31,131 bases of DNA, taken from the IMG/VR virus record IMGVR_UViG_3300045988_022899, positions 1 through 31,131 of that record, one strand, 5' to 3'. Positions 1-31,131 of the stretch are shown piece by piece. Position 1 is the first letter of the stretch. Each line of letters begins with the position of its first letter. Source of the stretch: a virus. Lineage: Duplodnaviria; Heunggongvirae; Uroviricota; Caudoviricetes. The notes below the pieces were generated by a model that had not been told where the DNA came from, ran no database searches, and was given only the letters and a program-made list of their open reading frames with translations. The translations under genes and the position numbers were made by a program.

Positions 1-756
1 TAGAACACCATCACCGGAGAAGCGTGAAATATCTATTTTCGATGCATCAACTATATATTCCCCTGCAGGAACATGAACAATTTTAGAGTTTAACTGTGCA
101 TTTATAAAAGCATTTGTATCATCATTAATTAAGTCTGCTTTTGCCCCAAAATCCTTTACGCTATAAACGTCACGCATCTTATCCTGGAACGTTCGGTATA
201 CTGCTCCAGAACCATACTGAATAAACCATCCGAAACCACCGACAACACCAGCAATTGCAGCATCCACATACTTACGCATTGAACGATTATTTACAGCATC
301 CTGCTCAAATGATGGATCTGCAAGGTTAGAAATTTTGTTTTGCTTTGCATCGTAATATTTTGCAAGCAACGAGGGCTTCATCAATGCACGTCTGAACCAC
401 CCAAAACATCGCTGGATCAGCATCGTCAGGTAGTCAAATGCATCCTCATGAACTTCGGGGAAAAATTTTCCCTGATTGCGAAGATCAGTCTCCTGCACCA
501 CATCAAGCACACGCTCTATCGTAATTCGCCAGCCAGCAGCAAGAGGCGACGGAAGAACCACTTCACCGCCACTATAAGTGCCCGCTCCAGTTACCTTATA
601 ACCGGTATCAAGCACCAATTCTGTTATGTTCCCGTTCAGATCAGACACCTGAACAACCAGGTCGGATTTTTTGAAAATACGGAAGGTATACGGAAATGAT
701 GTCGTAACGCCGTTACCTGTGTATTCGTTGTGGTCAACTTCGGTTGAGACCGTCAT
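1..756 (-). CDS. Tail fiber/tailspike, N-terminal 252 codons (gene continues beyond window start)
   Basis: ATG at 756 with GGAG RBS; minus-strand frame open to position 1. Translation MTVSTEVDHNEYTGNGVTTSFPYTFRIF... resembles the T7 gp17-type tail-fiber N-terminal domain; the last residues in the window (VKDFGAKADL...VHVPAGEYIVD) look like the start of a beta-helix enzymatic domain. Confidence 0.75.
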   Translation of the reverse strand, partial: MTVSTEVDHNEYTGNGVTTSFPYTFRIFKKSDLVVQVSDLNGNITELVLDTGYKVTGAGTYSGGEVVLPSPLAAGWRITIERVLDVVQETDLRNQGKFFPEVHEDAFDYLTMLIQRCFGWFRRALMKPSLLAKYYDAKQNKISNLADPSFEQDAVNNRSMRKYVDAAIAGVVGGFGWFIQYGSGAVYRTFQDKMRDVYSVKDFGAKADLINDDTNAFINAQLNSKIVHVPAGEYIVDASKIDISRFSGDGVL

Positions 757-860
757 GTTAAATCTCCAGATAGTCGCAGCACCCGTTGCGCCGCATATGT
801 GGTTATTCTATTACCTGAAAAACCACATATGGATAGAAAGACTGTGAATATGAATAGATA

Positions 861-875
861 TTACCTTTCAGGTGA
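861..875. promoter_or_regulatory. Operator-like palindrome TTACCTTTCAGGTGA (one mismatch to the recurrent motif)
   Basis: Seen in sequence; lies in the divergent intergenic region between the tail fiber start and the LexA-boxed gene. Confidence 0.4.
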
Positions 876-912
876 TTTGCAAAACGTGCTGGATAGCAAA
901 CAAATTATTTGA

Positions 913-932
913 TACTGTATAAATATACAGTT
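913..932. promoter_or_regulatory. LexA (SOS) box TACTGTATAAATATACAGTT
   Basis: CTGT-N8-ACAG with an AT-rich spacer, close to the E. coli LexA consensus TACTGTATATATATACAGTA; 20 bp upstream of the ATG at 952. Confidence 0.8.
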
Positions 933-951
933 ATTGCATGGAGAAGATAAG

Positions 952-1209
952 ATGCAGCAGTATCACTATCCACTGGAAGACGGATTTACCGAAAGGATTC
1001 ACACGCCGGGAGGCGTCAGGTCACTGGTGGAGGGATCGCACTTGATGAAATTACTCCGGGATCTCGATAAGGATGGATTTAATGTCGATGGCCCACTTGC
1101 CGAACTGACTGCACTGATTAACTACGTCACCAGCTCACAGATGTCTATGCGGGATCTGCAAACACATCTCGACTATTGTGCCGAACAATTACGAAAACAA
1201 ACCCGGTAA
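952..1209 (+). CDS. Small antirepressor-like protein (paralog of the Ant C-terminal domain)
   Basis: ATG at 952 with GGAGA RBS (the track ORF starts at an upstream TTG). The 85-aa product aligns with the C-terminus of the 2355-3041 product (shared L..LL..L...G.DV.G...ELT....Y......M.RD.QTH..Y pattern). Confidence 0.7.
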   Translation: MQQYHYPLEDGFTERIHTPGGVRSLVEGSHLMKLLRDLDKDGFNVDGPLAELTALINYVTSSQMSMRDLQTHLDYCAEQLRKQTR

Positions 1210-1215
1210 ATTTAA

Positions 1216-1233
1216 AGGCCGCAAGAGCGGCCT
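1216..1233. terminator. GC-rich hairpin between convergent genes (possible bidirectional terminator)
   Basis: AGGCCGC-AAGA-GCGGCCT stem-loop sitting between the stop at 1209 and the stop at 1232. Confidence 0.45.
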
Positions 1234-1960
1234 ATCGTTTCGCTTTGTGCTCATCCCAGCACGTTTTGCACCATGCCATTAAGCCGTCCGCATTTTGATT
1301 ATTAGGGTAAAAGCTGGTTCGTTTTCTGCGGACATTACAAATTGGGCACCACTTCATATGGCGTGTATTCTTTGGGCCATCGAGACACCTTGCACACCAT
1401 TTAGTCAATCCATCTGGATTTTTTGACGATTTCCTGAATTTTTCATATGGAAGGTTTATTCTGCATCGCAAGCACTGCTTGCTACCACTTGAAACTCTGT
1501 TAGCTGATTCTTCTTTTGGCGGCGATACAGAAGGTATTCTTGCTGGCTCTGATATTGCCTGAGGTGCTTTTTTAGATGACTGAGACGATATGTCATCACC
1601 AGGGAATCTTCCATGATATGCCGGACGCGTTGACACTCCAGGTGGAATCTCAGCTGTAAACGGCTTTGGCTGAATCAGTTGCCTCTCTTTTGCTAACTCC
1701 TGCTGTTTATAATATGTCTGGATTACCGCACTATCATAAGCAGGAGGTGCGGAAATATTAGGCGCATTACCTCCAGTTTTTTGAAACTGAGTAGAGGTGT
1801 GTTCTATCACCTGTGTACGATTAATCGTTATCTCCCCATCTTCGGTCTTTATCGTTTTGTTATGATTAACGACCGTACGATCAGAGATCTTAGTCTTGTT
1901 CTGGTTGATAACGTAAATAATCACCGCAACCACACCAACAACTATCCAGAAAACTTCCAT
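1232..1960 (-). CDS. Membrane-anchored protein with C-terminal tandem Cys-rich (zinc-ribbon-like) repeats; function unknown
   Basis: ATG at 1960 with GAGGAA RBS. N-terminal hydrophobic helix (VFWIVVGVVAVIIYVI), Pro/Ser-rich linker, then two similar CxxC...DGL..WC..C units. Confidence 0.65.
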   Translation of the reverse strand: MEVFWIVVGVVAVIIYVINQNKTKISDRTVVNHNKTIKTEDGEITINRTQVIEHTSTQFQKTGGNAPNISAPPAYDSAVIQTYYKQQELAKERQLIQPKPFTAEIPPGVSTRPAYHGRFPGDDISSQSSKKAPQAISEPARIPSVSPPKEESANRVSSGSKQCLRCRINLPYEKFRKSSKNPDGLTKWCARCLDGPKNTRHMKWCPICNVRRKRTSFYPNNQNADGLMAWCKTCWDEHKAKR

Positions 1961-1980
1961 TGCTTTTCCTCACAATAACA

Positions 1981-1995
1981 TTACCTTAAAGGTAA
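1981..1995. promoter_or_regulatory. Operator palindrome TTACCTTAAAGGTAA
   Basis: Perfect 6-3-6 inverted repeat; identical copy at 3108-3122; a degenerate copy follows at about 2000-2013. Confidence 0.55.
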
Positions 1996-2073: not shown

Positions 2074-2088
2074 TTACCTTTACGGTAA
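2074..2088. promoter_or_regulatory. Operator palindrome TTACCTTTACGGTAA in the ant leader
   Basis: TTACC-N5-GGTAA motif, seen in sequence. Confidence 0.45.
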
Positions 2089-2354
2089 ATTTACATCGCA
2101 CTCCTCTTGTGCCATAGTAATCGGGCACTGGCAAAATCCAGTGCCGGGATTGGCGTCCCGGATTACTACAGAGGCACATATGCCGCATAAGCGGTTTTTT
2201 TATGTGTAAAGCGCACCTATTCTATGGTGGGCTGTGTGGGGGCACCGAAAGGTGCGCCGGGTCCTTTGTAGCCGGTTACGCCAACCCTGCACAGTTCACC
2301 ACCAACCGATTGGCGTCGGTAGTGGTGATTAACCTAACTACAAAGGTGATCACT

Positions 2355-3041
2355 ATGACTGCTAACGTAACCCCATCTGTTTTTCATTTTGAATCAGAAG
2401 CAACCATTCGAGCCATTGTTATTGATGGAAATCCTTGGTTTGTTGCCAAAGACGTTATTAAAGCTCTTCAACTGACAAACCCCACTATGTCAATAAAATC
2501 TCTTGATGATGATGAAAGGGCTAAATTTAACTTAGGCCGTCAAGGCGAAACCAATATTATCAACGAGTCAGGCCTCTACACACTGATCCTCCGCTGCCGC
2601 GATGCGGTGACACCAGGCACTATCCCCTACCGCTTTCGTAAATGGGTTACAGGTGAGGTTCTTCCTCAGATCCGCCGCACCGGAAGTTACATTAAAAACT
2701 CGCTCCCGCAGGAAGAACGCATAAAGATGGTTGCCGACCAGGTAGCCAACGCCACGGCGTCAGCAGTGATGCAGGCGATGAAGATAGAGAACAAAACCTA
2801 CAGTGCCCCACTGAAGCCCGGCTACCGCAGTCTGATTCATTCTCCGTCTGGTGTTCTCGGCCTGACGGAGAACTCACTGCTGATGAATCTGCTGAACCAG
2901 TTACAGGAAGACGGGCACGACGTATCGGGCGCGGCGGCGGAGTTGACCACCATGTTCTGCTACATCGTCGGTGTGAGCAAATGCCTGCGTGATATCCAGA
3001 CGCACGCGGAGTACATCAACGACAAGGCAGGGTTCTTCTGA
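2355..3041 (+). CDS. ant: Phage antirepressor (Bro-N domain N-terminus plus C-terminal antirepressor domain)
   Basis: ATG at 2355 with AAGGTGA RBS; the track ORF has a 51-codon upstream extension. N-terminus FHFESEATIRAIVIDGNPWFVAKDVIKAL...ESGLYTLILRCR...VLPQIRRTG matches the Bro-N/antirepressor pattern from memory. Confidence 0.8.
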   Translation: MTANVTPSVFHFESEATIRAIVIDGNPWFVAKDVIKALQLTNPTMSIKSLDDDERAKFNLGRQGETNIINESGLYTLILRCRDAVTPGTIPYRFRKWVTGEVLPQIRRTGSYIKNSLPQEERIKMVADQVANATASAVMQAMKIENKTYSAPLKPGYRSLIHSPSGVLGLTENSLLMNLLNQLQEDGHDVSGAAAELTTMFCYIVGVSKCLRDIQTHAEYINDKAGFF

Positions 3042-3107: not shown

Positions 3108-3122
3108 TTACCTTAAAGGTAA
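3108..3122. promoter_or_regulatory. Operator palindrome TTACCTTAAAGGTAA
   Basis: Identical to the 1981-1995 site; 43 bp upstream of the ATG at 3165. Confidence 0.55.
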
Positions 3123-3164: not shown

Positions 3165-3491
3165 ATGACAAAACTTGGATTCGTGATGAGAGGTCCGGTA
3201 AGAAGCGGAACTCATGCAAAGCGTAGCAAGAGTCGTATTTTTACTGGTAAGGTTGTAGCACGTAAATCAGCTATTGGCTCGTTCAATAGTGAAAATGCGG
3301 CATTGCGCCATATTTTTATCAGCACAAAGCCAAGAGCATCCGCTGATGTGCATACAATGTCTATTCCTATCACAAAGAATATAAAGCGGATAAAAAAGCT
3401 CTCATCTGCAGAATCAAAAGAGATATCTTTCCGCCAGCTTAACTCATTAGAAACGCATATGAAGGAAGAGGAATTCGATGTTTTTGAGTGA
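3165..3491 (+). CDS. Small basic protein, first gene of a coupled pair (candidate antitoxin/partner)
   Basis: ATG at 3165 with GGAGA RBS; Lys/Arg-rich N-terminus and acidic C-terminal tail; its stop overlaps the downstream start by 14 nt. Confidence 0.55.
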   Translation: MTKLGFVMRGPVRSGTHAKRSKSRIFTGKVVARKSAIGSFNSENAALRHIFISTKPRASADVHTMSIPITKNIKRIKKLSSAESKEISFRQLNSLETHMKEEEFDVFE

Positions 3492-3990
3492 GTATAGCGG
3501 GAAGGTTATACCTACTGGTGAGTTTAAAACTGATGACTTTCTGATTTCGCTAAAAGATGCTTTTAAACAACACTGGCGTCATGGTCATCATCCTGATCTG
3601 GGAAAAGATACTCTTTTTGAAAGACCAGACGAAGTATTAGGCTTCCATCTCAGAAAGGTTCATGTCAATATTGGTGAATATGCATCATATTCATACTCAT
3701 GTACTGAACAGTGTTGGGATGAGTGGTCATATGGATTGATTGATGAACAAGGAAATTACAGGCCAAAACCAACCAGTAACGCATATCTCATATATGCAGT
3801 CAATGAAATAAGAGATGCAGCCTTACTAGCTTATTGGGACCCGCCCGCACACACCAAAGCTAACGCAAAAGTTTGGATGGATTCCGTATTGAATTTCACA
3901 AAATTATTTCATGAACGAACGAATACAGCCCCACTTAGTAGAAATGTTTATCCGTGGGATTATTCGTACAAATCCAAAAAGCCTGCATAG
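3478..3990 (+). CDS. YafO-like toxin-domain protein (putative ribosome-dependent mRNA interferase)
   Basis: ATG at 3478 with GGAAGAGG RBS. Motifs HPDLGKDTLF, LRKVHVNI and AALLAYWDPPAH resemble the YafO-family FGRD / HIHL / LLLAIL.P.H pattern as recalled; not database-verified. The locus is AT-rich. Confidence 0.45.
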   Translation: MFLSEYSGKVIPTGEFKTDDFLISLKDAFKQHWRHGHHPDLGKDTLFERPDEVLGFHLRKVHVNIGEYASYSYSCTEQCWDEWSYGLIDEQGNYRPKPTSNAYLIYAVNEIRDAALLAYWDPPAHTKANAKVWMDSVLNFTKLFHERTNTAPLSRNVYPWDYSYKSKKPA

Positions 3991-4071
3991 TAGTTTTTTA
4001 TGGACGAAACAAAAGTCAGTGCTACACTCATTGACGCCACATTGAGGTGGCTTATAGATGGAAATTTCACA

Positions 4072-4233
4072 ATGAAAAAAGCATTTGCTGCACTGTTCGT
4101 TTTGTTGTCTCTGGTAGCTTCAACTCAGGCCTTTGCCGGTCGTTGTCAGCACGACAGCGATACTGCCGCTGACGGCTCCCGCTGCGGTGGGCGTTCTGCG
4201 GATTCCCGCCCGGGTGGCGGTGGCATTCGTTAA
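4072..4233 (+). CDS. Small secreted peptide (signal peptide MKKAFAALFVLLSLVASTQAFA, ~31-aa Gly/Cys-containing mature part)
   Basis: ATG at 4072 inside the longer track ORF; typical Sec signal with an AFA-G cleavage context; followed by a hairpin. Confidence 0.4.
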   Translation: MKKAFAALFVLLSLVASTQAFAGRCQHDSDTAADGSRCGGRSADSRPGGGGIR

Positions 4234-4239
4234 AAACAA

Positions 4240-4255
4240 GGCCGCGAAAGCGGCC
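4240..4255. terminator. Hairpin GGCCGC-GAAA-GCGGCC; intrinsic terminator for the minus-strand virion operon
   Basis: On the minus strand the hairpin is followed by TTGTTTTTA; it sits between convergent genes. Confidence 0.6.
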
Positions 4256-4256
4256 T

Positions 4257-4268
4257 GTGACATGTCAC
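4257..4268. repeat. 12-bp perfect palindrome GTGACATGTCAC (copy 1 of 3)
   Basis: Seen in sequence; overlaps the TGA stop of the 4265-4561 gene. Confidence 0.6.
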
Positions 4269-4561
4269 GTTCCTTTTCTGAATGCTAGCCATTCGAAAAA
4301 TGATGACATTCCACCGCAGACAATAGCAAAGATGATCCCACCAAAGAAGAGAAGGCCAGCCTGCCACCACTCCCACCGCCATACATCCACAGCGCCAACC
4401 ATACCAACAATCGCTCCAACAAATGGAATATAGCTCACGATGAAAGCAATGGGGGCTGCAATTATCCAGTGCAATCCCCACCATGATTCAAGCCCAGCCA
4501 TAATTGCTGCCAACTGAAAAAGACCAACGACGATATAAACAATGAATCCTATAGCTTGCAT
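4265..4561 (-). CDS. Small polytopic membrane protein (~98 aa, three predicted TM helices); holin-like or superinfection-exclusion-like
   Basis: ATG at 4561 with AGGTGA RBS (the track ORF starts at an upstream TTG); strongly hydrophobic segments. Confidence 0.55.
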   Translation of the reverse strand: MQAIGFIVYIVVGLFQLAAIMAGLESWWGLHWIIAAPIAFIVSYIPFVGAIVGMVGAVDVWRWEWWQAGLLFFGGIIFAIVCGGMSSFFEWLAFRKGT

Positions 4562-4574
4562 GTAGTCACCTAAT

Positions 4575-4748
4575 TTACCCAGTAAAAATAAGAGGTCTCC
4601 CCTCAATAAGGCTTGCAACAAGAACTACTCCCTGCACAACAAAGATGAACCAGCAAATAGCTTGAGTCTGAGGGTTAAGAAAATATTTGTAGCGGTCAAT
4701 AAATAACAATCCACCAGAAATTATCACACTCAAAATAATTAAAAACAC
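4575..4748 (-). CDS. Possible 57-aa hydrophobic peptide (two TM-like segments), GTG start
   Basis: Open frame directly after the TAA of the 4758-7232 gene, with AAGGAAG overlapping that stop; absent from the ORF track; speculative. Confidence 0.25.
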   Translation of the reverse strand: MFLIILSVIISGGLLFIDRYKYFLNPQTQAICWFIFVVQGVVLVASLIEGRPLIFTG

Positions 4749-24247: not shown

Positions 24248-24256
24248 AACACCTTC

Positions 24257-26102: not shown

Positions 26103-26103
26103 A

Positions 26104-26403: not shown

Positions 26404-27020
26404 TGGTTGCCTCCTTTGCGAAGCTGGGCAGCAAAGTCAACTAACCACTCAGTCATTTCAACCTTCCCTACCAGGTCTGAACCAGGGTGCATACAGCAAT
26501 CACTCTGCGCCGCTTTGAAATCCTTATACTCATATTCTTGGGCCACCAGATTTTTTGCAGCTTCTATAGCAGCATCCACCCCCTGCGCTCGTACTTCAGC
26601 CAGAAAAGCATCGGTGGCTGGGGTGTCTGATTGCATAGACTTTGCGCGATAGTCATTCCACCCTCTTGCATACATGGGATTAACTTGCACTCCATCTTTT
26701 ACACAATATGCCTGCCCTCCACGGTTGATAACCTTGATTTCGTCCATAGCGCCAGACTTCAGCCCCGCATTCTCCGCCGCCAGCACCGAAAACTTCTCGT
26801 GCGCCAACTTAACAGCCGAATCAGCCTGCTTAATTGACTCAATCGCTTTCTGCTGGTCTTCGGCCAGCGCATTAGCACGCACCAGTTGCACTTCCAGTTG
26901 CGTTGCCAAATCGCTGATCAGCTTTGCCACACTGCGCATATCAACGGCACCACATTCTGCGTTCAGTTCCGAAGCCATCTCATGCCCGGCGGCAACTAAC
27001 CCTTTGATATTACTTTCCAT
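26400..27020 (-). CDS. Hypothetical early protein, 206 aa
   Basis: ORF with ATG start in the early leftward operon; no family recognised. Confidence 0.4.
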   Translation of the reverse strand: MESNIKGLVAAGHEMASELNAECGAVDMRSVAKLISDLATQLEVQLVRANALAEDQQKAIESIKQADSAVKLAHEKFSVLAAENAGLKSGAMDEIKVINRGGQAYCVKDGVQVNPMYARGWNDYRAKSMQSDTPATDAFLAEVRAQGVDAAIEAAKNLVAQEYEYKDFKAAQSDCCMHPGSDLVGKVEMTEWLVDFAAQLRKGGNQ

Positions 27021-27081
27021 CTTTACCCTCGCTTATCCACATAACTTATTGATTACATTGATAACTAAAAAGATCGTCGAT

Positions 27082-27426
27082 TCAGAACTCTTCGATGTTC
27101 CAGCCGCCACCTGCTTTCTTTGGTTTAACCGTTACCCCGATGATTCGGAACGGATACTGATCTGCGGCGACTTTGGTTTTCACCCTGGCGTCGTCGGTCC
27201 AGAAACCTTTCACTTCGTGCAGTTCCATCTCTCCGGTGGCGAGCATCACAGCGAAATCTGGCGTATAGAACGTGTTGTCAGCTAACCGCAGCTTGATACC
27301 CTCGAATCGATACCAGGCGATTTCCCCTGCACGTTTACGCAGCTCAAGGTGCTGGCAATACGCAGATTCTGTTTTGTTCATCTGGCCTGTTTTGAGTCGA
27401 CCAAGAGCCTGTATCTGTTTTCTCAT
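27082..27426 (-). CDS. DUF1064-like PD-(D/E)xK-fold phage protein
   Basis: GAGG RBS; motif YTPDFAV...ELHEVKG consistent with a restriction-endonuclease-like fold; family assignment from memory. Confidence 0.4.
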   Translation of the reverse strand: MRKQIQALGRLKTGQMNKTESAYCQHLELRKRAGEIAWYRFEGIKLRLADNTFYTPDFAVMLATGEMELHEVKGFWTDDARVKTKVAADQYPFRIIGVTVKPKKAGGGWNIEEF

Positions 27427-27429
27427 GAT

Positions 27430-27444
27430 TTACCTCTAAGGTAA
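27430..27444. promoter_or_regulatory. Operator palindrome TTACCTCTAAGGTAA overlapping the RBS of the 27426 gene
   Basis: Seen in sequence. Confidence 0.45.
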
Positions 27445-27491
27445 TTAAAAACCACATAAGACACGAAATCAATAGATCTAAGAACATTTTG

Positions 27492-27506
27492 TTACCTATT
27501 GGGTAA
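27492..27506. promoter_or_regulatory. Operator palindrome TTACCTATTGGGTAA
   Basis: Seen in sequence, in the intergenic region downstream of the P-like gene. Confidence 0.5.
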
Positions 27507-27543: not shown

Positions 27544-28344
27544 TTACTTGATAAATCCTGCTGCCTTTCCTCGCCTGTATTCCTCCATCAGCCACTGCGC
27601 CGGTGTTATTCCCCCCAGGGTGGCGGCGTTAGGCATGCACCCGAAACTTCGCCCTGGTGGATGGTAAACGTCTCTCCCTGTGTCCGGAGGTGTACTCATG
27701 GGTTCTGGCTTTGCCTGTATGCTGATCACCGGATCGGGTATCTGCTGTCCGGAAGCCACCTTTTTCGCCCAATCATCGAGCAACCTGCGCGCGTGTTTCT
27801 CAACCTCAATCTCGCTAAGCTGGCGCTGATACATTGCACGGCGGGTATCACATACGACCCAGTACATAACCGGATGCCGCCACGGGAATCTTTCGGGACC
27901 ACCAGGATATAAACTTTTTTCCTTGCTGTACCGGTGAAACTCCGCCATCACATCGTCAATGGTGACGCCAAGAACCATCTTGCTGTCTTTACACCACTTG
28001 ATGAATTGCCCTGGCGACGGCCAGAACGGAGACTCACTGGCGCGAGCGTGGCGCATACCAGCAGAAACCTGTTCACGGGTTCGGATCCCACCTTCGGCAA
28101 ACGCAGCAATCCACTGCTGTTTTGCAGCAACTTCCTGCTCTGGCGTCTTCAGGTTGGTTACCACTGCCGCCGGAAACAGTTGTTTCAGCTGTTTGAAAAG
28201 GGCATCAACAAGCCTCTCTGCTGACATGTTCACCACATTGTCATTGTTGACGTACTGATGCTCATAACCTGACATGCGAGAAAGGGCTTCTCCGTCACGG
28301 TTTTGTATCGCGGTAAAAACGTTGTTCACAAGAAATCCTCCCAT
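27544..28344 (-). CDS. Replication protein P-like (DnaB helicase loader)
   Basis: Recalled alignment to lambda P: FPAAVVTNL...QWIAAFAEGGIRTREQVSAGMRHARASESPFWPSPGQFIKWCKD versus lambda FPASLANRD...QWVLAFRENGITTMEQVNAGMRVARRQNRPFLPSPGQFVAWCRE; overlaps the O-like gene. Confidence 0.8.
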   Translation of the reverse strand: MGGFLVNNVFTAIQNRDGEALSRMSGYEHQYVNNDNVVNMSAERLVDALFKQLKQLFPAAVVTNLKTPEQEVAAKQQWIAAFAEGGIRTREQVSAGMRHARASESPFWPSPGQFIKWCKDSKMVLGVTIDDVMAEFHRYSKEKSLYPGGPERFPWRHPVMYWVVCDTRRAMYQRQLSEIEVEKHARRLLDDWAKKVASGQQIPDPVISIQAKPEPMSTPPDTGRDVYHPPGRSFGCMPNAATLGGITPAQWLMEEYRRGKAAGFIK

Positions 28345-29141
28345 GCTTCAGGGCTGTTCCAGTGCGGAACGTTGTTATCAGGTAATGTTGATTGCTTCTG
28401 TCTGCTAATCTGCAGCCGCCTTGCCAGCTTCTGCTCCCACTGTGCCTGATGGTATGCCTTACCCTCAGCCATCCAGTAAATTCTGAACTCTGCAAGTTCC
28501 TGTGCCGTTGGCAGACTGTCCAGGTAGATCCCCTGCAATGAGCTTTTCCGAAGAAAGTCATCTGATGGCTGCCATTGTTCATGCATGACAAATTTGCCTA
28601 ATTGCCCTGGCCCACCAGGAGGAACAAAGTTATTCATCACGGCGTTGTTTGCGCCGGGGTCATGAGGCACAGAACCTCGGGTTTTTGTCCTGCTCTCCCT
28701 CTCTTGGTTAAATGACTGGTTATATGACTGGTTCTGGATCCCGTTTTTGGGATCATTCAACATCCCGTTTTTGGGATCATTCAACATCCCGTTTTTGGGT
28801 ATATTCCCGTTTTCGGTAACATTACCGTTTTCGGGTTCATTGCCCCCCTCCCGGTTGCCTTTAATGTTCCCGTTTTTGGTTATATTAAGAGAGAAAACCC
28901 GCACTCTTTTTGTCGCTCCCTTTCTCTCTCCGGTATCTGAAATAAGCCCCATTTTCATGAGCGATATAAGCCCGGCCTGCACGGTTTTTTTATTCAGGCA
29001 AGTGTCTTTAACGAGGCGTTCTATGCTGGGGTAGCAGAGGTTATATTCATCGGCTCTGTCAGCCATCGAGAGCAGTATGAGCTTTAATGACGAGCTACCT
29101 GGATCTGTCTCCCAGGCCCAATCTGTTGCATGTCTGCTCAT
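28326..29141 (-). CDS. Replication initiator (lambda O-like role), with internal origin iterons
   Basis: GGAG RBS; lies upstream of and overlaps the P-like gene; iteron array inside the coding sequence encodes a repetitive Asn/Gly-rich linker (NGNVTENGNIPKNGMLNDPKNGMLNDPKNG). Confidence 0.65.
   Translation of the reverse strand: MSRHATDWAWETDPGSSSLKLILLSMADRADEYNLCYPSIERLVKDTCLNKKTVQAGLISLMKMGLISDTGERKGATKRVRVFSLNITKNGNIKGNREGGNEPENGNVTENGNIPKNGMLNDPKNGMLNDPKNGIQNQSYNQSFNQERESRTKTRGSVPHDPGANNAVMNNFVPPGGPGQLGKFVMHEQWQPSDDFLRKSSLQGIYLDSLPTAQELAEFRIYWMAEGKAYHQAQWEQKLARRLQISRQKQSTLPDNNVPHWNSPEAWEDFL
28738..28888. repeat. Iteron array (candidate replication origin)
   Basis: Two exact 24-bp tandem units ATCCCGTTTTTGGGATCATTCAAC followed by four degenerate CCGTTTT(T/C)GG units at 18-24 bp spacing; preceded by a direct repeat ATGACTGGTT x2 (28712-28734). 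Confidence 0.7.
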
Positions 29142-29357: not shown

Positions 29358-29507
29358 GGTAAGCCCTGTTATTAGTATTGGGATTACGGTCATTTTGTGC
29401 TGACACAAAAAAAAGATCAACCATATTTGGTTTTTTATTACCTTTGAGGTACGAATAGATATGAAAAGACCGCCGGGTGGCGGTCTACAGAGGGTTGTAG
29501 CTGGATA

Positions 29508-29738
29508 TCATGAGTAGAAGAAGTATGCCAGTTCTGCTTTTGAGCGCAGCCATTGTCTTGTTTTACAGGCTTTAAAAAGCCCATTCATCAATACTTTACC
29601 TGGCATTTTGCGCTTACCTGTTAAGTGAGTCTGGATATAGTGACTCGTCGTTCCGGCTTCCTGTGCGAAGGCTTCACGCTCATCCGGAGTAAGTGCAAGC
29701 CAGTGCTTTTTGAAATCGAAATGTCCGTTATCGCTCAT
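29508..29738 (-). CDS. Cro-like small HTH regulator (YdaS-like), first gene of the leftward early operon
   Basis: 76 aa; HTH-like segment EAFAQEAGTTSHYIQTHLTG; divergent from the repressor across an operator-rich intergenic region. Confidence 0.6.
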   Translation of the reverse strand: MSDNGHFDFKKHWLALTPDEREAFAQEAGTTSHYIQTHLTGKRKMPGKVLMNGLFKACKTRQWLRSKAELAYFFYS

Positions 29739-29774
29739 AGCTATTGCCTGATATTTATTTCAGATAATAAATAT

Positions 29775-29837
29775 TCACCCATAAGGTAACAAAAATCAAG
29801 GATAGTTACCCATGAGGTGCATTTACCTGTTGGGTAA
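29775..29837. promoter_or_regulatory. Tripartite operator region with divergent promoters between the cro-like and repressor genes
   Basis: Three sites seen in sequence: TCACCCATAAGGTAA (29775-29789), TTACCCATGAGGTGC (29806-29820), TTACCTGTTGGGTAA (29823-29837). Confidence 0.6.
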
Positions 29838-29892
29838 TATTGCTTTAAATTGAATCATCTACTGATTCATATATGAGGCGATTTTCCAGAAA

Positions 29893-30477
29893 ATGAAAAG
29901 TATCCAGGACGTCCGCAGGCAAAATCTCAACGACTTGATCGACCGTGAATTCAATGGTGTTCAGACGCGGATGGCTGAAAAACTTGGAACTCAGGCAAAT
30001 CTGGTAAACCGCTGGGCTCTTGGTAAGAAGGTTATCGGCGATCAGGTTGCGCGAAAAATTGAAGCTGCCGCCAATAAACCCCGTAACTGGCTTGATATCG
30101 ATCGCTCGCTTTCTCAGGAAGGTTTTCAGCCTGTCGGCCCAAGCGACATTGGTCAGCTGGCAGCTCACAACCTGGAACGCTGGATGAGTGAAAGCCGCGA
30201 CCTTTCAACTCAGGGAAAACTTCACCGCGCATCCGGCGTCGCCCAGGTGACAATAAGCCGCCTGTTAAACAATGAGGTCAGCGTTTCCATTTCCACCCTG
30301 GAGAATGTTGCATCTGCATTCGGGCGTCACGGATATGAACTACTGATTCATCCGCATGACCCTGCAACTATCAACTATGACCGCTCGCGCTACGCATTGT
30401 TACCTGAAACAGAGAAGGCAAAGATCGAAAGTTACATTGAATTTGTCATCAACCAGAACGAAAAAAACAAACAATAA
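29893..30477 (+). CDS. Prophage repressor, tandem HTH (XRE-type) domains, no S24 peptidase domain
   Basis: 194 aa; two HTH-like segments (QTRMAEKLGTQANLVNRW and SGVAQVTISRLLNNEVSVSISTL); no Ala-Gly/Ser-Lys autocleavage module; no recognisable SD before the ATG. Confidence 0.65.
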   Translation: MKSIQDVRRQNLNDLIDREFNGVQTRMAEKLGTQANLVNRWALGKKVIGDQVARKIEAAANKPRNWLDIDRSLSQEGFQPVGPSDIGQLAAHNLERWMSESRDLSTQGKLHRASGVAQVTISRLLNNEVSVSISTLENVASAFGRHGYELLIHPHDPATINYDRSRYALLPETEKAKIESYIEFVINQNEKNKQ

Positions 30478-30498
30478 AATCATATTTTTCAGTAAGTA

Positions 30499-30522
30499 AG
30501 CCGCCTTATGGCGGCTTTTTTA
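30499..30522 (+). terminator. Intrinsic terminator AGCCGCC-TTAT-GGCGGCT plus T-run after the repressor gene
   Basis: Seen in sequence. Confidence 0.7.
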
Positions 30523-30534
30523 TTGCCTGTTCGA

Positions 30535-30611
30535 TTACCTAACGGGTAATTTTTTTAACTCATATCTATTGACATCAAACCAGATACGCATAATTATTAC
30601 CTCAACGGTAA
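30535..30611 (+). promoter_or_regulatory. PL-like rightward promoter flanked by two operators
   Basis: TTACCTAACGGGTAA (30535-30549), -35 TTGACA (30569-30574), AT-rich -10 near 30591-30597, TTACCTCAACGGTAA (30597-30611) over the predicted start site. Confidence 0.55.
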
Positions 30612-30630
30612 CATACCGAGGTAACAAGTT

Positions 30631-30783
30631 ATGCAGTGGAAAATCATCAACGGTTGGTACTGCGTTACTGCATGCGGATTCATGAGCTGGAAGTTCCGCA
30701 CCTTACAGGAAGGCATTAAGTGGGCTTTCGTCAGCAAAGAAGCTCGCGATGTAGCCAACGATAACGAGATATGGGAGGGCTGA
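30631..30783 (+). CDS. Small protein (50 aa), first gene of the rightward operon
   Basis: ATG at 30631 with GAGGT RBS; absent from the ORF track (below its length cutoff). Confidence 0.4.
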   Translation: MQWKIINGWYCVTACGFMSWKFRTLQEGIKWAFVSKEARDVANDNEIWEG

Positions 30784-30785
30784 TA

Positions 30786-31085
30786 ATGAACGTTAATCAG
30801 CAGAAAAATCTTCAAAAAATCATGCTGGCATTCGACAAGGACTACCGCCTGTCAGAACAGCTATATGACCGACAAGTTGAACTGATTGAGAGCATCCGAC
30901 TTCATCAACTGGCCTCAACTTTTGACGCTGTAACAGGCAAAGGAGTTCGCCAGGAAGTGCTGGAGGCAGCTAAAGACAGCCCTGAGTTCGAAGAACTTAT
31001 GGATGCCTACCGGCGCGAGGCAATGGCAATTATCGCCCGCTGGGATCTGGCGGATCGGATTGATGGGCAGAGGGAAGCGGCATGA
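30786..31085 (+). CDS. Hypothetical protein, 99 aa
   Basis: ATG at 30786 with GGGAGGG RBS (the track ORF has a 5-codon upstream extension). Confidence 0.45.
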   Translation: MNVNQQKNLQKIMLAFDKDYRLSEQLYDRQVELIESIRLHQLASTFDAVTGKGVRQEVLEAAKDSPEFEELMDAYRREAMAIIARWDLADRIDGQREAA

Positions 31086-31131
31086 AACCGGGAATTTATT
31101 TCGACATCAGCAACGAAGACTACCACGCCGG
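31082..31131 (+). CDS. Start of a gene (MKPGIYFDISNEDYHA...), possibly a recombination/exonuclease-type protein; truncated by window end
   Basis: ATGA overlap with the upstream stop; only 16 codons visible, so function is a guess. Confidence 0.3.
   Translation, partial: MKPGIYFDISNEDYHA

What the first reader, a model, noticed from the sequence alone, without database searches (positions are those of the whole stretch)
1..31131. Mosaic architecture: T7-like virion genes on a lambdoid temperate backbone with a P22-like immI placement
Portal C-terminus, gp14-like protein, gp12-like N-terminus and the tail-fiber N-terminal domain all resemble T7-supergroup proteins. Replication (O/P), immunity (repressor/Cro) and the antirepressor region are lambdoid or P22-like, and the ant/exclusion cluster lies between the ejection proteins and the tail fiber exactly as immI/sieA does in P22. 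This combination is characteristic of temperate podophages and is worth classifying.
Basis: partly seen in the sequence, partly recalled or inferred. Interest (0 to 1): 0.4.

Follow-up and report, generated by a model that had tools for sequence, protein, structure and literature searches.

The report
phiV10-like temperate podophage, already known

Summary
The window is about 97% identical in DNA to Escherichia phages phiV10, phiv142-3, O157 typing phages 9/10 and ZX5 (genus Uetakevirus). At least 80% of its first 25 kb is present in 268 of 5,426 complete E. coli genomes.

**T7-like virion genes:** true only as deep homology, and only for the portal and the tail and ejection genes.
- The portal is in the same Pfam family as T7 gp8 over its full length.
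- There is a gp14-family protein.
- The adaptor and the tail-fibre N-terminus have gp11-like and gp17-like predicted folds.
- The nozzle resembles gp12 weakly, in its centre and not its N-terminus.
- The head is BPP-1/epsilon15-type. No T7 or P22 protein gives a significant pairwise match.

**Lambdoid backbone:** true for gene order, a lambda-P homologue and some shared ea-type accessory genes. It fails for the rest:
- The O-position gene is HTH_36+DnaT.
- The repressor is SPC32H-Rep-like with no S24 domain.
- Its TTACC-N5-GGTAA operators sit at about 14 sites.

**P22-like immI placement:** the position is right, the content is not. There is no Mnt, Arc, SieA or P22-type Ant. Instead there is a LexA-boxed 85-aa SPC32H-type Ant, plus a Bro-N–Ant fusion behind isrK and C4 RNAs (P1 immI / Gifsy-1 isrK-anrP type).

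Verdict: already known, low interest.

The parts
1..756 (-). N-terminal 252 aa of the tail fibre/tailspike; the gene runs off the left end of the window. Residues 1-~165 form the particle-binding domain, and a pectate-lyase-like domain begins at about residue 199.
   Evidence: Translation. PHROG tail fibre/spike families at E down to 1.7e-140. Homologous to the tail fibre of PDB 8CK1 at E 4.9e-33. The model matches T7 gp17 N-terminus chains 7EY9_a and 7BOZ_a. PF03906 is below threshold.
861..875 (.). Repressor-operator-like palindrome TTACCTTTCAGGTGA (1 mismatch), upstream of the small ant gene and of the divergent tail-fibre gene
   Evidence: The equivalent site is annotated as a 'repressor' binding site in epsilon15 at 19895-19911.
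915..930 (.). Perfect LexA (SOS) box CTGTATAAATATACAG, 22 bp upstream of the small ant start codon
   Evidence: Conserved in position in phiV10 (L001 9290-9305) and epsilon15 (19841-19856).
952..1209 (+). Small antirepressor Ant (85 aa), orthologue of phiV10 p24, epsilon15 gp19 and SPC32H Ant
   Evidence: PDB 5D50_E 'Anti-repressor protein' at E 1.4e-46. 98.8% identical to phiV10 p24 and 83% to epsilon15 gp19.
1232..1960 (-). 242-aa protein with an N-terminal transmembrane helix and two C-terminal Cys4 zinc-ribbon repeats; function unknown
   Evidence: phrog_6762 over the full length. The zinc ribbons resemble endonuclease VII, Lar and Stc1. No PADLOC hit.
1981..1995 (.). Exact repressor-operator palindrome TTACCTTAAAGGTAA, 20 bp upstream of the 242-aa gene
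2074..2088 (.). Exact repressor-operator palindrome TTACCTTTACGGTAA, abutting the -35 of the predicted isrK promoter (TTTACA-17-CATAGT, 2090-2118)
   Evidence: A site sits in the same place in phiV10 (sequence printed).
2125..2201 (+). isrK-family Hfq-binding sRNA with its own terminator
   Evidence: Rfam RF01394 at 76.8 bits (gathering score 50), E 5e-15. Terminator at 2182-2195. Also present in phiV10.
2220..2306 (+). C4 antisense RNA (P1/P7 immI type)
   Evidence: Rfam RF01695 at 79.5 bits (gathering score 45), E 3e-14. Also present in phiV10, absent in epsilon15.
2310..2346 (+). Leader of the Bro-N ant gene carrying the C4 target sequences: TTGGCGT (2310-2316) and CTACAAAGG (2338-2346). 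The second overlaps the Shine-Dalgarno sequence.
   Evidence: Exact complementarity to the C4 junction ACGCCAA and to the loop CCTTTGTAG. Loop and target co-vary in phiV10 (CCTTTTAG / CTAAAAGG).
2355..3041 (+). Bro-N antirepressor (228 aa) whose C-terminal domain is an Ant paralogue. An in-frame ATG at 2202 would give a 279-aa form that reads through the C4 region.
   Evidence: PF02498 Bro-N at E 5e-20. Residues 147-223 match 5D50_E Ant at E 1.1e-13. 41% identical to the small Ant. ORF 2202-3041.
3108..3122 (.). Exact repressor-operator palindrome upstream of orf108
3165..3990 (+). Two overlapping genes, orf108 (3165-3491) and a 170-aa YafO-like protein (3478-3990); possible toxin-antitoxin pair
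   Evidence: PF13957 YafO_toxin at E 9.5e-4, below the cut-off. RefSeq annotates the homologues as a YafO family toxin. No NCBIfam or PADLOC hit here.
4000..4748 (.). Small secreted or membrane proteins: 77 aa with a signal peptide (4000-4233 +), 118 aa (4265-4621 -) and 57 aa (4575-4748 -)
   Evidence: Translations. phrog_3117/14503 'membrane associated protein' and phrog_3075.
4758..9040 (-). Two large internal/ejection proteins, 824 aa (4758-7232) and 600 aa (7238-9040). The first is the orthologue of epsilon15 gp17, which the literature assigns as a T7 gp16 (IVP-D) homologue.
   Evidence: phrog_684 and phrog_1145. phiV10 p20 and p19. Hardies 2016. No Pfam hit.
9037..11550 (-). Internal virion protein with a lytic transglycosylase region (phiV10 p18 / epsilon15 gp15)
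   Evidence: PHROG 992, 1044 and 7182 'tail injection transglycosylase'. The epsilon15 record notes an HHpred match to lytic transglycosylase.
11550..12095 (-). T7 gp14-family internal virion protein (IVP-B)
   Evidence: PF24072 T7_gp14 at E 2.5e-7, 31.2 bits against a cut-off of 27. T7 gp14 hits the same family.
12095..12559 (-). Internal virion protein in the position of T7 gp13 (IVP-A)
   Evidence: phrog_308. PF11090 only at E 0.088. Synteny and Hardies 2016.
12559..15030 (-). Tail nozzle (tubular tail protein B)
   Evidence: PDB 8CK1_A 'Tail Nozzle' at E 6.7e-217. The family profile matches the centre of T7 gp12. 18,298 relatives in the representative library.
15030..15635 (-). Tail adaptor (tubular tail protein A, T7 gp11 fold)
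   Evidence: AF2 model with pLDDT 85.9. Foldseek: 8CK1_E at E 1e-16 and T7 gp11 7BOX_N at E 4.6e-6, TM 0.59.
15635..18839 (-). Head module: Gp10-like decoration (15635-15964), p12 (16009-16353), Bbp16-like cement (16355-16792), major capsid protein (16844-17836), gene annotated as protease in relatives (17845-18546), Bbp19-like (18543-18839)
   Evidence: PF21628, PF21190, PF20911 and PF25181. The capsid protein matches BPP-1 3J4U_A at E 9.5e-129 and epsilon15 3J40_A at E 2e-85. Protease by annotation of relatives only.
18836..20515 (-). Portal protein (T7 gp8 family)
   Evidence: PF12236 at E 1.8e-187, residues 7-496. PDB 8CK0_A at E 1.4e-178.
20827..20841 (.). Exact repressor-operator palindrome upstream of the first gene of the head operon (20530-20736 -)
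   Evidence: The equivalent site in epsilon15 is annotated at 2931-2947.
21164..21240 (+). tRNA-Arg (UCU)
21892..24038 (-). Terminase large (21892-23367) and small (23364-24038) subunits. Two operator palindromes (23960-23992) lie at the 5' end of the small-subunit ORF.
   Evidence: PF03592 for the small subunit. The large subunit is assigned by phiV10/epsilon15 annotation only; it has no Pfam or PDB sequence hit. Operators.
24035..27426 (-). Accessory early genes (regulator phrog_536, DUF551/Ea-type, DUF7739, DUF1064 resolvase-like), partly shared at 90-97% DNA identity with Stx, lambdoid and P22-like phages
27430..27506 (.). Two exact operator palindromes between the P gene and the DUF1064 gene
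27544..29141 (-). Replication genes: lambda-P-family helicase loader (27544-28344) and an initiator with HTH_36 + DnaT domains (28326-29141)
   Evidence: PF06992 at E 1.5e-56; PF13730 and PF17948. 31% identical to lambda P.
29438..30611 (.). Immunity region: operator-like site at 29438; cro-like gene 29508-29738(-); operators at 29775 and 29823; repressor Rep 29893-30477(+); operators at 30535 and 30597
   Evidence: Rep matches PDB 5D50_A SPC32H Repressor at E 4e-42 over the full length. HTH_3, no S24 domain. cro-like gene is phrog_35. Operators.

Best explanation
The window is about 31 kb of a phiV10-like member of the genus Uetakevirus (epsilon15-like temperate podophages), either a prophage or a phage genome.

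**Architecture.** It is the standard architecture of that genus.
- The early region has a lambdoid gene order: early-left operon, repressor, divergent cro-like gene, initiator, lambda-P-type loader, then Ea-type accessory genes.
- Next come the terminase genes and a BPP-1/epsilon15-type head module with a T7-family portal.
- Then comes a tail and ejection module that is a distant relative of T7 gp11-gp16, in the same order.
- Then a variable accessory 'ant moron', then a tail fibre with a T7 gp17-like particle-binding domain.

**How the lysis-lysogeny switch works.** The parts are shown; how they act together is inferred.
- A tandem-HTH repressor without an autocleavage domain, homologous to SPC32H Rep, binds TTACC-N5-GGTAA palindromes at about 14 promoter-proximal sites across the genome.
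- SOS induction does not cleave this repressor. Instead it removes LexA from a perfect LexA box in front of an 85-aa antirepressor. In SPC32H that antirepressor is known to break up Rep tetramers.
- A second antirepressor joins a Bro-N domain to an Ant-like C-terminal domain. Its promoter abuts a Rep operator.
- Its leader encodes an isrK-family sRNA and a C4 antisense RNA. The C4 loop is complementary to the gene's Shine-Dalgarno sequence. Its expression is therefore probably blocked twice in a lysogen, by Rep at transcription and by C4 at translation.
- Once Rep is inactivated it would be released, giving a feed-forward lock on lytic growth. This is the logic of P1 immI and of Gifsy-1 isrK-orf45-anrP.
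For: **Identity.**
- DNA identity is 97.0-97.8% over 78-87% of bases 1-25000 with phiv142-3, O157 typing phages 9/10, phiV10, HEMP4, PAS61 and ZX5.
- Identity is 97% over about 70% of bases 24000-31131 with phiV10 and PAS61.
- 268 of 5,426 complete E. coli genomes hold at least 80% of the first 25 kb.
- Gene-for-gene colinearity with the annotated phiV10 and epsilon15 records.

**Virion genes.**
- Pfam PF12236, PF24072, PF20911, PF21190, PF21628 and PF25181.
- PDB relatives 8CK0/8CK1, 3J4U and 3J40.
- Adaptor model matches T7 gp11.
- Fibre N-terminus model matches T7 gp17.
- Nozzle family profile matches the centre of T7 gp12, in agreement with Hardies 2016.

**Switch.**
- Rep and Ant match the two chains of PDB 5D50. 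The Bro-N protein carries an Ant-like domain.
- The LexA box is conserved in phiV10 and epsilon15.
- The operator palindrome occurs 14 times against 0.49 expected. It occurs 15 times in epsilon15, where seven of those sites fall within sites annotated as repressor-binding.
- isrK and C4 score well above Rfam gathering scores.
- The C4 loop and its target are complementary and co-vary between the window and phiV10.
- Over-expression of the Bro-N anti-repressor of the related phage ZX5 reduced lysogeny (PMC9782041).
- The P1 immI operon is repressed both by C1 and by C4 RNA (PMC8198154).
- IsrK activates translation of the downstream antirepressor in Gifsy-1 (PMC4825925).
Against: - The window lacks the integrase, lysis and conversion genes and most of the tail-fibre gene. 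Genus assignment therefore rests on a partial genome.
- No experiment was done on this sequence. Rep binding to the palindromes, LexA control of the small ant gene and C4/IsrK control of the Bro-N gene are inferred from homologues and from sequence.
- Whether the Ant-like domain of the Bro-N protein binds this Rep is untested. In phiV10 that domain is cut short by a frameshift, so it may be dispensable.
- Nozzle similarity to T7 gp12 is weak in my own test (12.9 bits).
- The tail-fibre model has only moderate confidence (pLDDT 68), and TM-scores to T7 gp17 are 0.38-0.48.
Confidence: 0.9

Rival explanations
1. A recent chimera: a T7-like (Autographiviridae) structural block recombined onto a lambda/P22-type prophage. 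This is the literal reading of the first reader's title.
For: Profile- and fold-level matches to T7 gp8, gp11, gp12, gp14 and gp17. A lambda-P homologue. Ea-type genes shared at 90-97% DNA identity with Stx, lambdoid and P22-like phages.
Against: No significant pairwise similarity to any of 12 T7 or 23 P22 proteins tested. The T7 families Tube (PF17212) and Phage_nozzle (PF25675) are not hit. The head is BPP-1/epsilon15-type, with a gene annotated as a protease in relatives and cement proteins. The same complete architecture is conserved in epsilon15 (Salmonella) and Tyrion (Enterobacter) at only 76-81% DNA identity. It is therefore an old lineage, not a recent join.
Confidence: 0.03
2. A P22-like (Lederbergvirus) phage with a true P22-type immI region, that is Mnt/Arc repressors, sar RNA and a P22 Ant, plus sieA.
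For: Same slot between the last ejection-protein gene and the tailspike gene. That slot is a known variable 'ant moron' in P22-like phages (PMC2629481).
Against: The portal is PF12236, not PF16510 P22_portal. No match to P22 Mnt, Arc, Ant, SieA, gp16, gp20, gp7 or gp9. P22 Ant is P22_AR_N/C, whereas this one is Bro-N plus an SPC32H-Ant domain. The regulatory RNAs are isrK and C4.
Confidence: 0.02
3. The 757-4757 region is mainly a lysogenic-conversion, superinfection-exclusion or defence island that is expressed in the lysogen. The Bro-N protein would then be an anti-immunity or cross-talk factor aimed at other prophages rather than at the phage's own repressor.
For: - The content varies among close relatives.
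- It holds small membrane and secreted proteins and a YafO-like protein.
- phiV10's depositors called p23 a 'putative anti-immunity protein'.
- Antirepressors of Salmonella prophages act in trans on other prophages' repressors (PMC7380047).
Against: - No PADLOC or NCBIfam hit and no SieA homologue.
- Rep-operator palindromes lie directly upstream of the 242-aa gene, of isrK/ant and of orf108. This predicts repression, not expression, in a lysogen.
- The Bro-N protein shares its C-terminal domain with the phage's own Ant.
Confidence: 0.2

Closest known systems
Escherichia phage phiV10 and relatives (phiv142-3, O157 typing phages 9/10, vB_EcoP_ZX5, PAS61, HEMP4, TL-2011b); genus Uetakevirus, type epsilon15
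   Same: About 97% DNA identity over most of the window. Same gene order from the tail fibre to the immunity region. Same Rep (the ZX5 paper states that the repressors of phiV10, phiv142-3, typing phage 10 and ZX5 have the same sequence), same small Ant, same isrK-C4-Bro-N module and same tRNA-Arg.
   Different: The ant region is 4 kb here against about 1.6 kb in phiV10. It adds the 242-aa zinc-ribbon protein, orf108, the YafO-like pair and the 77-aa secreted protein, which are shared instead with TL-2011b and some prophages. The Bro-N protein is full length (228 aa) here but frameshifted in phiV10. No deposited phage covers more than 87% of the first 25 kb.
Salmonella phage SPC32H Rep-Ant antirepression system (PDB 5D50/5D4Z; Kim & Ryu 2013, Kim et al. 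2016, cited through)
   Same: Homologous Rep over its full length (E 4e-42) and a homologous 85-86-aa Ant (E 1.4e-46). A LexA box lies upstream of ant. The repressor has no autocleavage domain.
   Different: The window also carries a second, Bro-N-fused Ant paralogue with RNA control. I did not check whether SPC32H has one.
Phage P1/P7 immI operon (c4-icd-ant1/2)
   Same: A C4-family antisense RNA is encoded in the leader of an antirepressor operon. Two short C4 segments are complementary to the downstream leader, one of them over the ribosome-binding site. The operon promoter is next to an operator of the main repressor. The main repressor has many operators dispersed over the genome.
   Different: No icd gene was identified. 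The antirepressor is Bro-N/SPC32H-Ant type. The repressor is unrelated to P1 C1. An isrK sRNA precedes C4. The phage is an integrating podovirus, not a plasmid-forming myovirus.
Gifsy-1 isrK-orf45-anrP locus of Salmonella (Hershko-Shalev et al. 2016, PMC4825925)
   Same: An isrK-family sRNA with its own terminator is followed by a short conserved leader and an antirepressor gene. As that paper reports for S. dysenteriae, the leader ORF is fused in frame to the antirepressor gene (ATG 2202 to 3041).
   Different: I did not test sequence homology of AnrP to the window's Bro-N protein. No AntQ gene is present in the window. Here the module sits in the late region of a podophage.
P22 immI/sieA 'ant moron' (PMC2629481)
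   Same: Same position, between the last ejection-protein gene and the tailspike gene. It holds an antirepressor and is highly variable among relatives.
   Different: No Mnt, Arc, sar, P22-type Ant or SieA.
T7 class III gene block gp8-gp17
   Same: Same order: portal, head genes, adaptor (gp11 fold), nozzle (gp12 central domain), gp13-position protein, gp14-family protein, large internal proteins including a transglycosylase, then a fibre with a gp17-like N-terminus.
   Different: No pairwise sequence similarity. The head is BPP-1/epsilon15-type, with a gene annotated as a protease in relatives and decoration proteins. The terminase genes lie upstream of the portal. An accessory region separates the ejection genes from the fibre gene. 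The phage is temperate, and no phage RNA polymerase is annotated in complete relatives.

Membership tests
Genus Uetakevirus (epsilon15/phiV10-like phages) | At least about 70% nucleotide similarity over the genome to a member (ICTV genus criterion, from my own knowledge) | tested here: met
   82-87% of bases 1-25000 aligned at about 97% identity with phiV10 and phiv142-3, and about 70% of 24000-31131 at 97.5%. This was tested on a partial genome only.
Genus Uetakevirus (epsilon15/phiV10-like phages) | Colinear gene order with epsilon15 and phiV10, from terminase to tail fibre and through the immunity/replication region | tested here: met
T7-related podovirus tail lineage ('transient tail' group of Hardies 2016) | T7 gp8-family portal | tested here: met
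   PF12236 at E 1.8e-187. T7 gp8 hits the same family at E 2.8e-113.
T7-related podovirus tail lineage ('transient tail' group of Hardies 2016) | gp11-type adaptor (tubular tail A) | tested here: met
   No Pfam PF17212 hit, but the AF2 model (pLDDT 85.9) matches T7 gp11 7BOX_N at E 4.6e-6, probability 1.00, TM 0.59. All 24 hits with E <= 0.001 are podovirus tail adaptor (tubular protein A) chains.
T7-related podovirus tail lineage ('transient tail' group of Hardies 2016) | gp12-type nozzle (tubular tail B) | tested here: inconclusive
   No PF25675 hit. The family profile hits T7 gp12 residues 353-464 at 12.9 bits, E 4e-5 in a 40-protein panel. Hardies 2016 reports HMM-HMM E below 1e-10 for epsilon15 gp12 against T7 gp12 in the same central region. 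The close relative 8CK1_A is deposited as 'Tail Nozzle'.
T7-related podovirus tail lineage ('transient tail' group of Hardies 2016) | gp14-family internal virion protein in syntenic position | tested here: met
   PF24072 at 31.2 bits against a cut-off of 27.
T7-related podovirus tail lineage ('transient tail' group of Hardies 2016) | gp17-type N-terminal fibre domain | tested here: inconclusive
   PF03906 at 14.4 bits against a cut-off of 25.2. A model with pLDDT 68 matches 7EY9_a at E 1.4e-5 and 7BOZ_a at E 1.6e-4, with TM 0.38-0.48.
Autographiviridae (T7-like phages proper) | Phage-encoded single-subunit RNA polymerase; strictly lytic | tested here: not met
   No RNA polymerase is annotated in the complete genomes of epsilon15, or in the portion of phiV10 read, and none was found among the window ORFs scanned. 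A repressor and antirepressors are present.
Lambdoid phages | CI/C2-type repressor with an S24 autocleavage domain | tested here: not met
   HTH_3 only, no Peptidase_S24. Homologous to SPC32H Rep. No similarity to lambda cI or P22 c2.
Lambdoid phages | Lambda O-type initiator and P-type (or DnaB/DnaC-type) loader | tested here: inconclusive
   P is met: PF06992 at E 1.5e-56 and 31% identity to lambda P. O is not met: HTH_36 + DnaT domains, and no similarity to lambda O or P22 gp18.
Lambdoid phages | Divergent repressor and cro genes, with early-left and early-right operons in lambda order | tested here: met
   Rep (+) and the cro-like gene (-) are divergent. The replication genes lie downstream of cro.
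Lambdoid phages | N/Q antitermination control of delayed-early and late genes | tested here: inconclusive
   No N- or Q-family hit among the early ORFs scanned with Pfam and PHROGs. The window does not include the whole early-left operon.
P22 immI / sieA | Mnt and Arc repressors, sar antisense RNA, P22_AR-type Ant, SieA | tested here: not met
   No BLASTP or phmmer match to P22 Mnt, Arc, Ant or SieA. The Pfam domains differ. Rfam finds isrK and C4 only.
P22 immI / sieA | Location between the last ejection-protein gene and the tailspike gene | tested here: met
   Window 757-4757 lies between 4758-7232(-) and 1-756(-). In P22, 13336-15993 lies between gene 16 and gene 9.
P1/P7-type immI (C4 antisense control of ant) | C4-family RNA encoded upstream of the antirepressor gene in the same transcript | tested here: met
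   RF01695 at 79.5 bits at 2220-2306, 49 nt upstream of the ATG at 2355.
P1/P7-type immI (C4 antisense control of ant) | C4 single-stranded segments complementary to the leader, including the ribosome-binding site | tested here: met
   A 9-nt and a 7-nt exact complement. The 9-nt one overlaps the Shine-Dalgarno sequence. Loop and target co-vary in phiV10. Function was not tested.
P1/P7-type immI (C4 antisense control of ant) | icd gene and Ant1/Ant2 proteins | not tested
   The P1 proteins were not fetched. The antirepressor here is Bro-N plus an SPC32H-Ant domain.
SPC32H-type Rep/Ant antirepression | Rep homologue, small Ant homologue, LexA box upstream of ant | tested here: met
   5D50_A at E 4e-42, 5D50_E at E 1.4e-46 and the box CTGTATAAATATACAG at 915-930.
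Gifsy-1 isrK-orf45-anrP | isrK sRNA with a leaky terminator, followed by a leader ORF coupled to an antirepressor gene | tested here: inconclusive
   RF01394 at 76.8 bits, and a terminator at 2182-2195. An ATG at 2202 is in frame with the Bro-N gene. AnrP homology and terminator read-through were not tested.

The most novel reading that the evidence does not exclude
The phage carries two antirepressors that share one repressor-binding (Ant) domain but listen to different signals. The 85-aa Ant is released by LexA cleavage. The Bro-N-Ant fusion is held back by the phage repressor at its promoter and by C4 antisense RNA at its ribosome-binding site, and is tuned by the isrK sRNA. Together they would form an SOS-triggered, self-reinforcing switch. 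The same arrangement would mean that the P1-type C4 module and the Gifsy-type isrK module are two halves of one widespread control cassette for antirepressors. I found no paper in the library that states the shared Ant domain or this circuit for Uetakeviruses. However, PHROG antirepressor families (phrog_1760, phrog_130) already contain the domain combination.
Probability: 0.4. Interest if true: 0.4.

Novelty: already known. Interest (0 to 1): 0.15.

Why it matters
It matters little for discovery. The element belongs to a named genus with sequenced, imaged and partly dissected members (epsilon15, phiV10, SPC32H, ZX5), and its mosaic ancestry has been published.

The practical value is correct annotation.
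- These prophages are common in E. coli: 268 of 5,426 complete genomes hold at least 80% of the first 25 kb.
- They are SOS-inducible through a LexA-controlled antirepressor, not through repressor cleavage.
- They carry an RNA-controlled second antirepressor that automated annotation labels only 'BRO-N domain protein'.

The side observation that isrK, C4 and a Rep operator jointly guard an Ant-domain fusion gives a compact, testable model of how antisense RNA and SOS inputs are combined in a podophage.

Tried and rejected
1. **Pairwise BLASTP and phmmer.** I compared all 42 window proteins with 12 T7, 23 P22 and 5 lambda proteins. Only P against lambda P was significant. I therefore rejected direct T7 or P22 ancestry and moved to profiles and folds.
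2. **Defence and naming libraries.** PADLOC and NCBIfam scans of the ant-region proteins gave no hits. The 'exclusion/defence' idea has no support.
3. **Terminase large subunit.** It had no Pfam hit at E <= 0.01 and no PDB sequence hit at E <= 1. Its lineage could not be placed here. Hardies 2016 places the epsilon15 terminase and capsid with siphoviruses.
4. **RNAduplex.** For C4 against the leader the result was not distinctive: 31 of 500 shuffles reached the observed energy. For isrK against the downstream leader it was only suggestive: 3 of 300. I relied on the exact complementary stretches and their co-variation instead.
5. **Other LexA-type boxes.** The exact CTGT-N8-ACAG boxes at 16814 and 21356 are also in phiV10 but not in epsilon15, and they lack an AT-rich core. 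I treat them as probable chance matches inherited by close relatives.
6. **Papers not held.** The epsilon15 genome paper (Kropinski 2007) and the SPC32H paper (Kim & Ryu 2013) were not in the library. I used the epsilon15 GenBank annotation, the PDB entries and secondary citations.
7. **File access.** Loci fetched by accession did not appear at first in the script machine. The T7, P22 and lambda proteins were carried in through an alignment.
8. **Nozzle structure.** The word-indexed homologue search for the nozzle listed only relatives of at least 82% identity. I did not predict the nozzle structure and used the representative library and a home-built profile instead.

Full report
**What the window is.**
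- Megablast of bases 1-25000 against GenBank phages finds seven records covering at least 80% of the query at 97.1-97.8% identity. They are Escherichia phages phiv142-3, O157 typing phages 9 and 10, phiV10 (two records), HEMP4 and PAS61. ZX5 follows at 78% coverage. All belong to or resemble the genus Uetakevirus.
- More distant members match at 76-81% identity: Enterobacter phage Tyrion, Salmonella phage epsilon15, 65FD and PAT1.
- The last 7 kb matches phiV10 and PAS61 at about 97% over about 70%.
- Among 5,426 complete E. coli genomes, 268 hold at least 80% of the first 25 kb.
- Gene order is colinear with the annotated phiV10 and epsilon15 records.
- The window starts inside the tail-fibre gene; translating 1-756 on the minus strand gives its first 252 residues. 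It ends in the early-left operon. It therefore lacks the O-antigen conversion, lysis and integrase genes that follow the fibre gene in phiV10.

**Claim 1, 'T7-like virion genes'.**
- The portal (18836-20515, minus strand) matches Pfam PF12236 at E 1.8e-187 across residues 7-496. T7 gp8 matches the same family, whereas the P22 portal is PF16510. The match is therefore to the whole protein, not the C-terminus.
- The 181-aa protein at 11550-12095 passes the curated threshold of PF24072 (T7 gp14 family). The preceding 154-aa protein gives only E 0.088 to the gp13 family.
- The 201-aa adaptor and the 823-aa nozzle hit neither PF17212 nor PF25675, the families that T7 gp11 and gp12 define. They are homologous to the 'Connector Protein' and 'Tail Nozzle' chains of the solved Carin-1 phage tail, PDB 8CK1.
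- An AlphaFold2 model of the adaptor (pLDDT 85.9) matches T7 gp11 (7BOX_N) at E 4.6e-6 and TM 0.59. All 24 hits with E <= 0.001 are podovirus tail adaptor (tubular protein A) chains.
- The nozzle family is very large: 18,298 representatives at E <= 0.001. A profile built from 91 members hits T7 gp12 alone in a 40-protein panel, at 12.9 bits. The match covers T7 residues 353-464, which is the centre and not the N-terminus.
- That is the same region for which Hardies et al. 2016 reported strong HMM-HMM similarity between epsilon15 gp12 and T7 gp12. They also assigned epsilon15 gp13/gp14 as IVP-A/B and gp17 as an IVP-D homologue. They noted that the epsilon15 terminase and capsid group with siphoviruses (PMC4819975).
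- The tail-fibre N-terminal domain is below threshold for PF03906. A moderate-confidence model matches T7 gp17 N-terminus chains (7EY9_a at E 1.4e-5, 7BOZ_a at E 1.6e-4) and the fibres of other T7-like phages.
- The head is not T7-like. The major capsid protein is PF20911 and closest to Bordetella phage BPP-1 (3J4U, E 9.5e-129), then epsilon15 gp7 (3J40). Bbp16-like, Bbp19-like and Gp10-like proteins are present, and relatives annotate a protease gene here.
- No window protein has significant pairwise similarity to any T7 or P22 structural protein.
- Conclusion: the tail, ejection and portal genes share the order and a deep ancestry with T7 gp8 and gp11-gp17. This is a published property of the epsilon15 group, not a sign of a recent chimera.

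**Claim 2, 'lambdoid backbone'.**
- The layout is lambdoid. The repressor (29893-30477, plus strand) and a cro-like gene (29508-29738, minus strand) are divergent. An initiator, a loader and accessory genes lead toward the terminase genes.
- The loader is a true lambda-P homologue: PF06992 at E 1.5e-56, and 31% identity to lambda P.
- The gene in the O position is HTH_36 plus a DnaT DNA-binding domain, with no similarity to lambda O or P22 gp18.
- DNA shared with Stx-converting, lambdoid and P22-like phages at 90-97% identity is confined to roughly 24600-26870, which holds Ea-type and DUF551 accessory genes.
- The repressor has no S24 peptidase domain. It aligns end to end with the repressor of Salmonella phage SPC32H (PDB 5D50_A, E 4e-42).
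- No N- or Q-type antiterminator was found among the early ORFs.
- The palindrome TTACC-N5-GGTAA occurs 14 times with at most one mismatch, against 0.49 expected. All sites are in promoter-like positions: the ant region (861, 1981, 2074, 3108), upstream of the head operon (20827), at the 5' end of the small terminase gene (23960, 23978), between P and the next gene (27430, 27492), and around the repressor (29438, 29775, 29823, 30535, 30597).
- The same motif occurs 15 times in epsilon15. Seven of those sites fall within sites annotated there as repressor-binding.
- Repression is therefore dispersed over many promoters, as with P1 C1, rather than confined to OL and OR.

**Claim 3, 'P22-like immI placement'.**
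- The position is right. In P22, sieA-mnt-arc-sar-ant lies between gene 16 and gene 9. Casjens and colleagues call this variable slot the 'ant moron' (PMC2629481). In the window the 4-kb region 757-4757 occupies the same slot.
- Its content is different. There is no match to Mnt, Arc, P22 Ant or SieA.
- *First module: LexA-controlled small Ant.*
  - A perfect LexA box (CTGTATAAATATACAG, 915-930) lies 22 bp upstream of an 85-aa gene (952-1209).
  - That gene's product matches the SPC32H antirepressor in PDB 5D50_E at E 1.4e-46. It is 98.8% identical to phiV10 p24 and 83% to epsilon15 gp19.
  - The box is conserved upstream of the orthologues in phiV10 and epsilon15.
  - In SPC32H, Ant is LexA-controlled and breaks up Rep tetramers (Kim & Ryu 2013 and Kim et al. 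2016, as summarised).
- *Second module: RNA-controlled Bro-N antirepressor.*
  - Rfam finds an isrK-family sRNA (2125-2201, 76.8 bits) and a C4 antisense RNA (2220-2306, 79.5 bits). Both lie directly upstream of a Bro-N gene (2355-3041).
  - The Bro-N protein's C-terminal 80 residues are a paralogue of Ant: E 1.1e-13 to 5D50_E, and 41% identity to the small Ant.
  - The C4 hairpin loop CCUUUGUAG is exactly complementary to CUACAAAGG at 2338-2346, which overlaps the Shine-Dalgarno sequence. A second segment, ACGCCAA, pairs with UUGGCGU at 2310-2316.
  - In phiV10 the loop and its target have changed together, to CCUUUUAG and CUAAAAGG.
  - A Rep operator (2074-2088) abuts the predicted -35 of the isrK promoter.
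- This is the logic of the P1 immI operon, which C1 represses at transcription and C4 RNA represses at translation (PMC8198154). It is also the logic of the Gifsy-1 isrK-orf45-anrP locus, where IsrK in trans opens the leader for translation of the antirepressor (PMC4825925).
- The in-frame ATG at 2202 gives a 279-aa ORF through the C4 region. That paper notes the same fusion of 'orf45' to the antirepressor gene in S. dysenteriae.
- epsilon15 lacks the isrK-C4-Bro-N module. phiV10 has it, but with a frameshift that removes most of the Ant-like domain.
- Over-expression of the Bro-N antirepressor of the related phage ZX5 lowered lysogeny (PMC9782041).

**Other genes in the ant region.**
- They include a 242-aa protein with a transmembrane helix and two zinc ribbons, and an orf108/170-aa pair whose second member is weakly YafO-like (E 9.5e-4, below threshold). 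A 77-aa secreted protein and two small membrane proteins complete the set.
- None hits PADLOC or NCBIfam.
- Rep operators stand in front of the 242-aa gene and of orf108. This argues that these genes are repressed in the lysogen. Calling them an exclusion cluster is not supported.

**Most likely mechanism.**
- Shown: the identity of the parts, their positions and their conservation.
- Inferred: in the lysogen, Rep occupies the dispersed palindromes, LexA blocks the small ant gene, and Rep plus C4 block the Bro-N-Ant gene.
- DNA damage would remove LexA. The small Ant would then inactivate Rep, and every Rep-controlled promoter would open, including the isrK promoter. IsrK, together with transcripts outrunning C4, would allow the second antirepressor to be made. 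That would reinforce commitment to lytic growth.
- I hold the classification and the SPC32H-type switch at about 0.9 confidence. I hold the role of the Bro-N fusion as a second antagonist of the phage's own repressor at about 0.4-0.5.

**Verdict.**
- The element is an ordinary member of a known genus, and its mosaic ancestry and antirepression system are already in the literature.
- Novelty: already known. Interest: low.

Noticed in passing
window 861, 1981, 2074, 3108, 20827, 23960, 23978, 27430, 27492, 29438, 29775, 29823, 30535, 30597: The palindrome TTACC-N5-GGTAA occurs 14 times against 0.49 expected, always in promoter-like positions across the whole genome. It matches the sites annotated as repressor-binding in epsilon15. 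This is dispersed, P1-C1-like repression rather than lambda-like OL/OR control.
   Followed up: yes
window 2202-3041 (+): An ATG at 2202, at the end of the isrK terminator, opens a 279-aa ORF. It reads through the C4 RNA region in frame with the Bro-N antirepressor gene. The Gifsy-1 paper notes the same 'orf45-anrP fusion' for S. dysenteriae. Which start codon is used is unknown.
   Followed up: partly
L001 (phiV10) 9897-10481 versus window 2355-3041: The phiV10 p23 Bro-N protein (194 aa) diverges from the window protein after residue ~178 and ends early, apparently through a frameshift. It therefore lacks most of the Ant-like C-terminal domain that is intact in the window (228 aa).
   Followed up: partly
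window 3165-3990 (+): Overlapping gene pair orf108 and a 170-aa protein weakly similar to YafO toxin (PF13957, E 9.5e-4, below the cut-off). RefSeq names the homologues as a YafO family toxin. A repressor operator lies upstream at 3108. This is a possible toxin-antitoxin or abortive-infection pair, absent from phiV10.
   Followed up: partly
window 1232-1960 (-): A 242-aa protein with an N-terminal transmembrane helix, a low-complexity linker and two Cys4 zinc-ribbon repeats (endonuclease VII, Lar and Stc1-like). A repressor operator lies 20 bp upstream. Function unknown.
   Followed up: partly
window 16814-16829 and 21356-21371: Two further exact CTGT-N8-ACAG matches (3 in the window against about 0.5 expected). 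Both are also in phiV10 but not in epsilon15, and both lack the AT-rich core of real LexA boxes. They are probably chance matches shared by close relatives.
   Followed up: partly
window 21164-21240 (+) and 21170-21421 (-): The tRNA-Arg(UCU) gene overlaps, on the opposite strand, the 3' end of an 83-aa ORF (phrog_4647, phiV10 p04). The ORF may not be a real gene.
   Followed up: no
window 16844-17836 (-): The major capsid protein is closer to that of Bordetella phage BPP-1 (3J4U, E 9.5e-129) than to that of the genus type epsilon15 (3J40, E 2e-85). Both a Bbp16-like cement gene and an epsilon15 Gp10-like decoration gene are present.
   Followed up: partly
window 952-1209 versus 29893-30477, compared with epsilon15: The small Ant is 83% identical between the window and epsilon15, while the repressors are only 42% identical and the operator half-sites are the same. 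The antirepressor is conserved much more strongly than its target.
   Followed up: no
window 2131-2329: The isrK-C4 segment alone matches more than 100 Stx-converting and other lambdoid phage records at 77-80% identity. The RNA cassette is therefore shared well beyond Uetakeviruses.
   Followed up: partly
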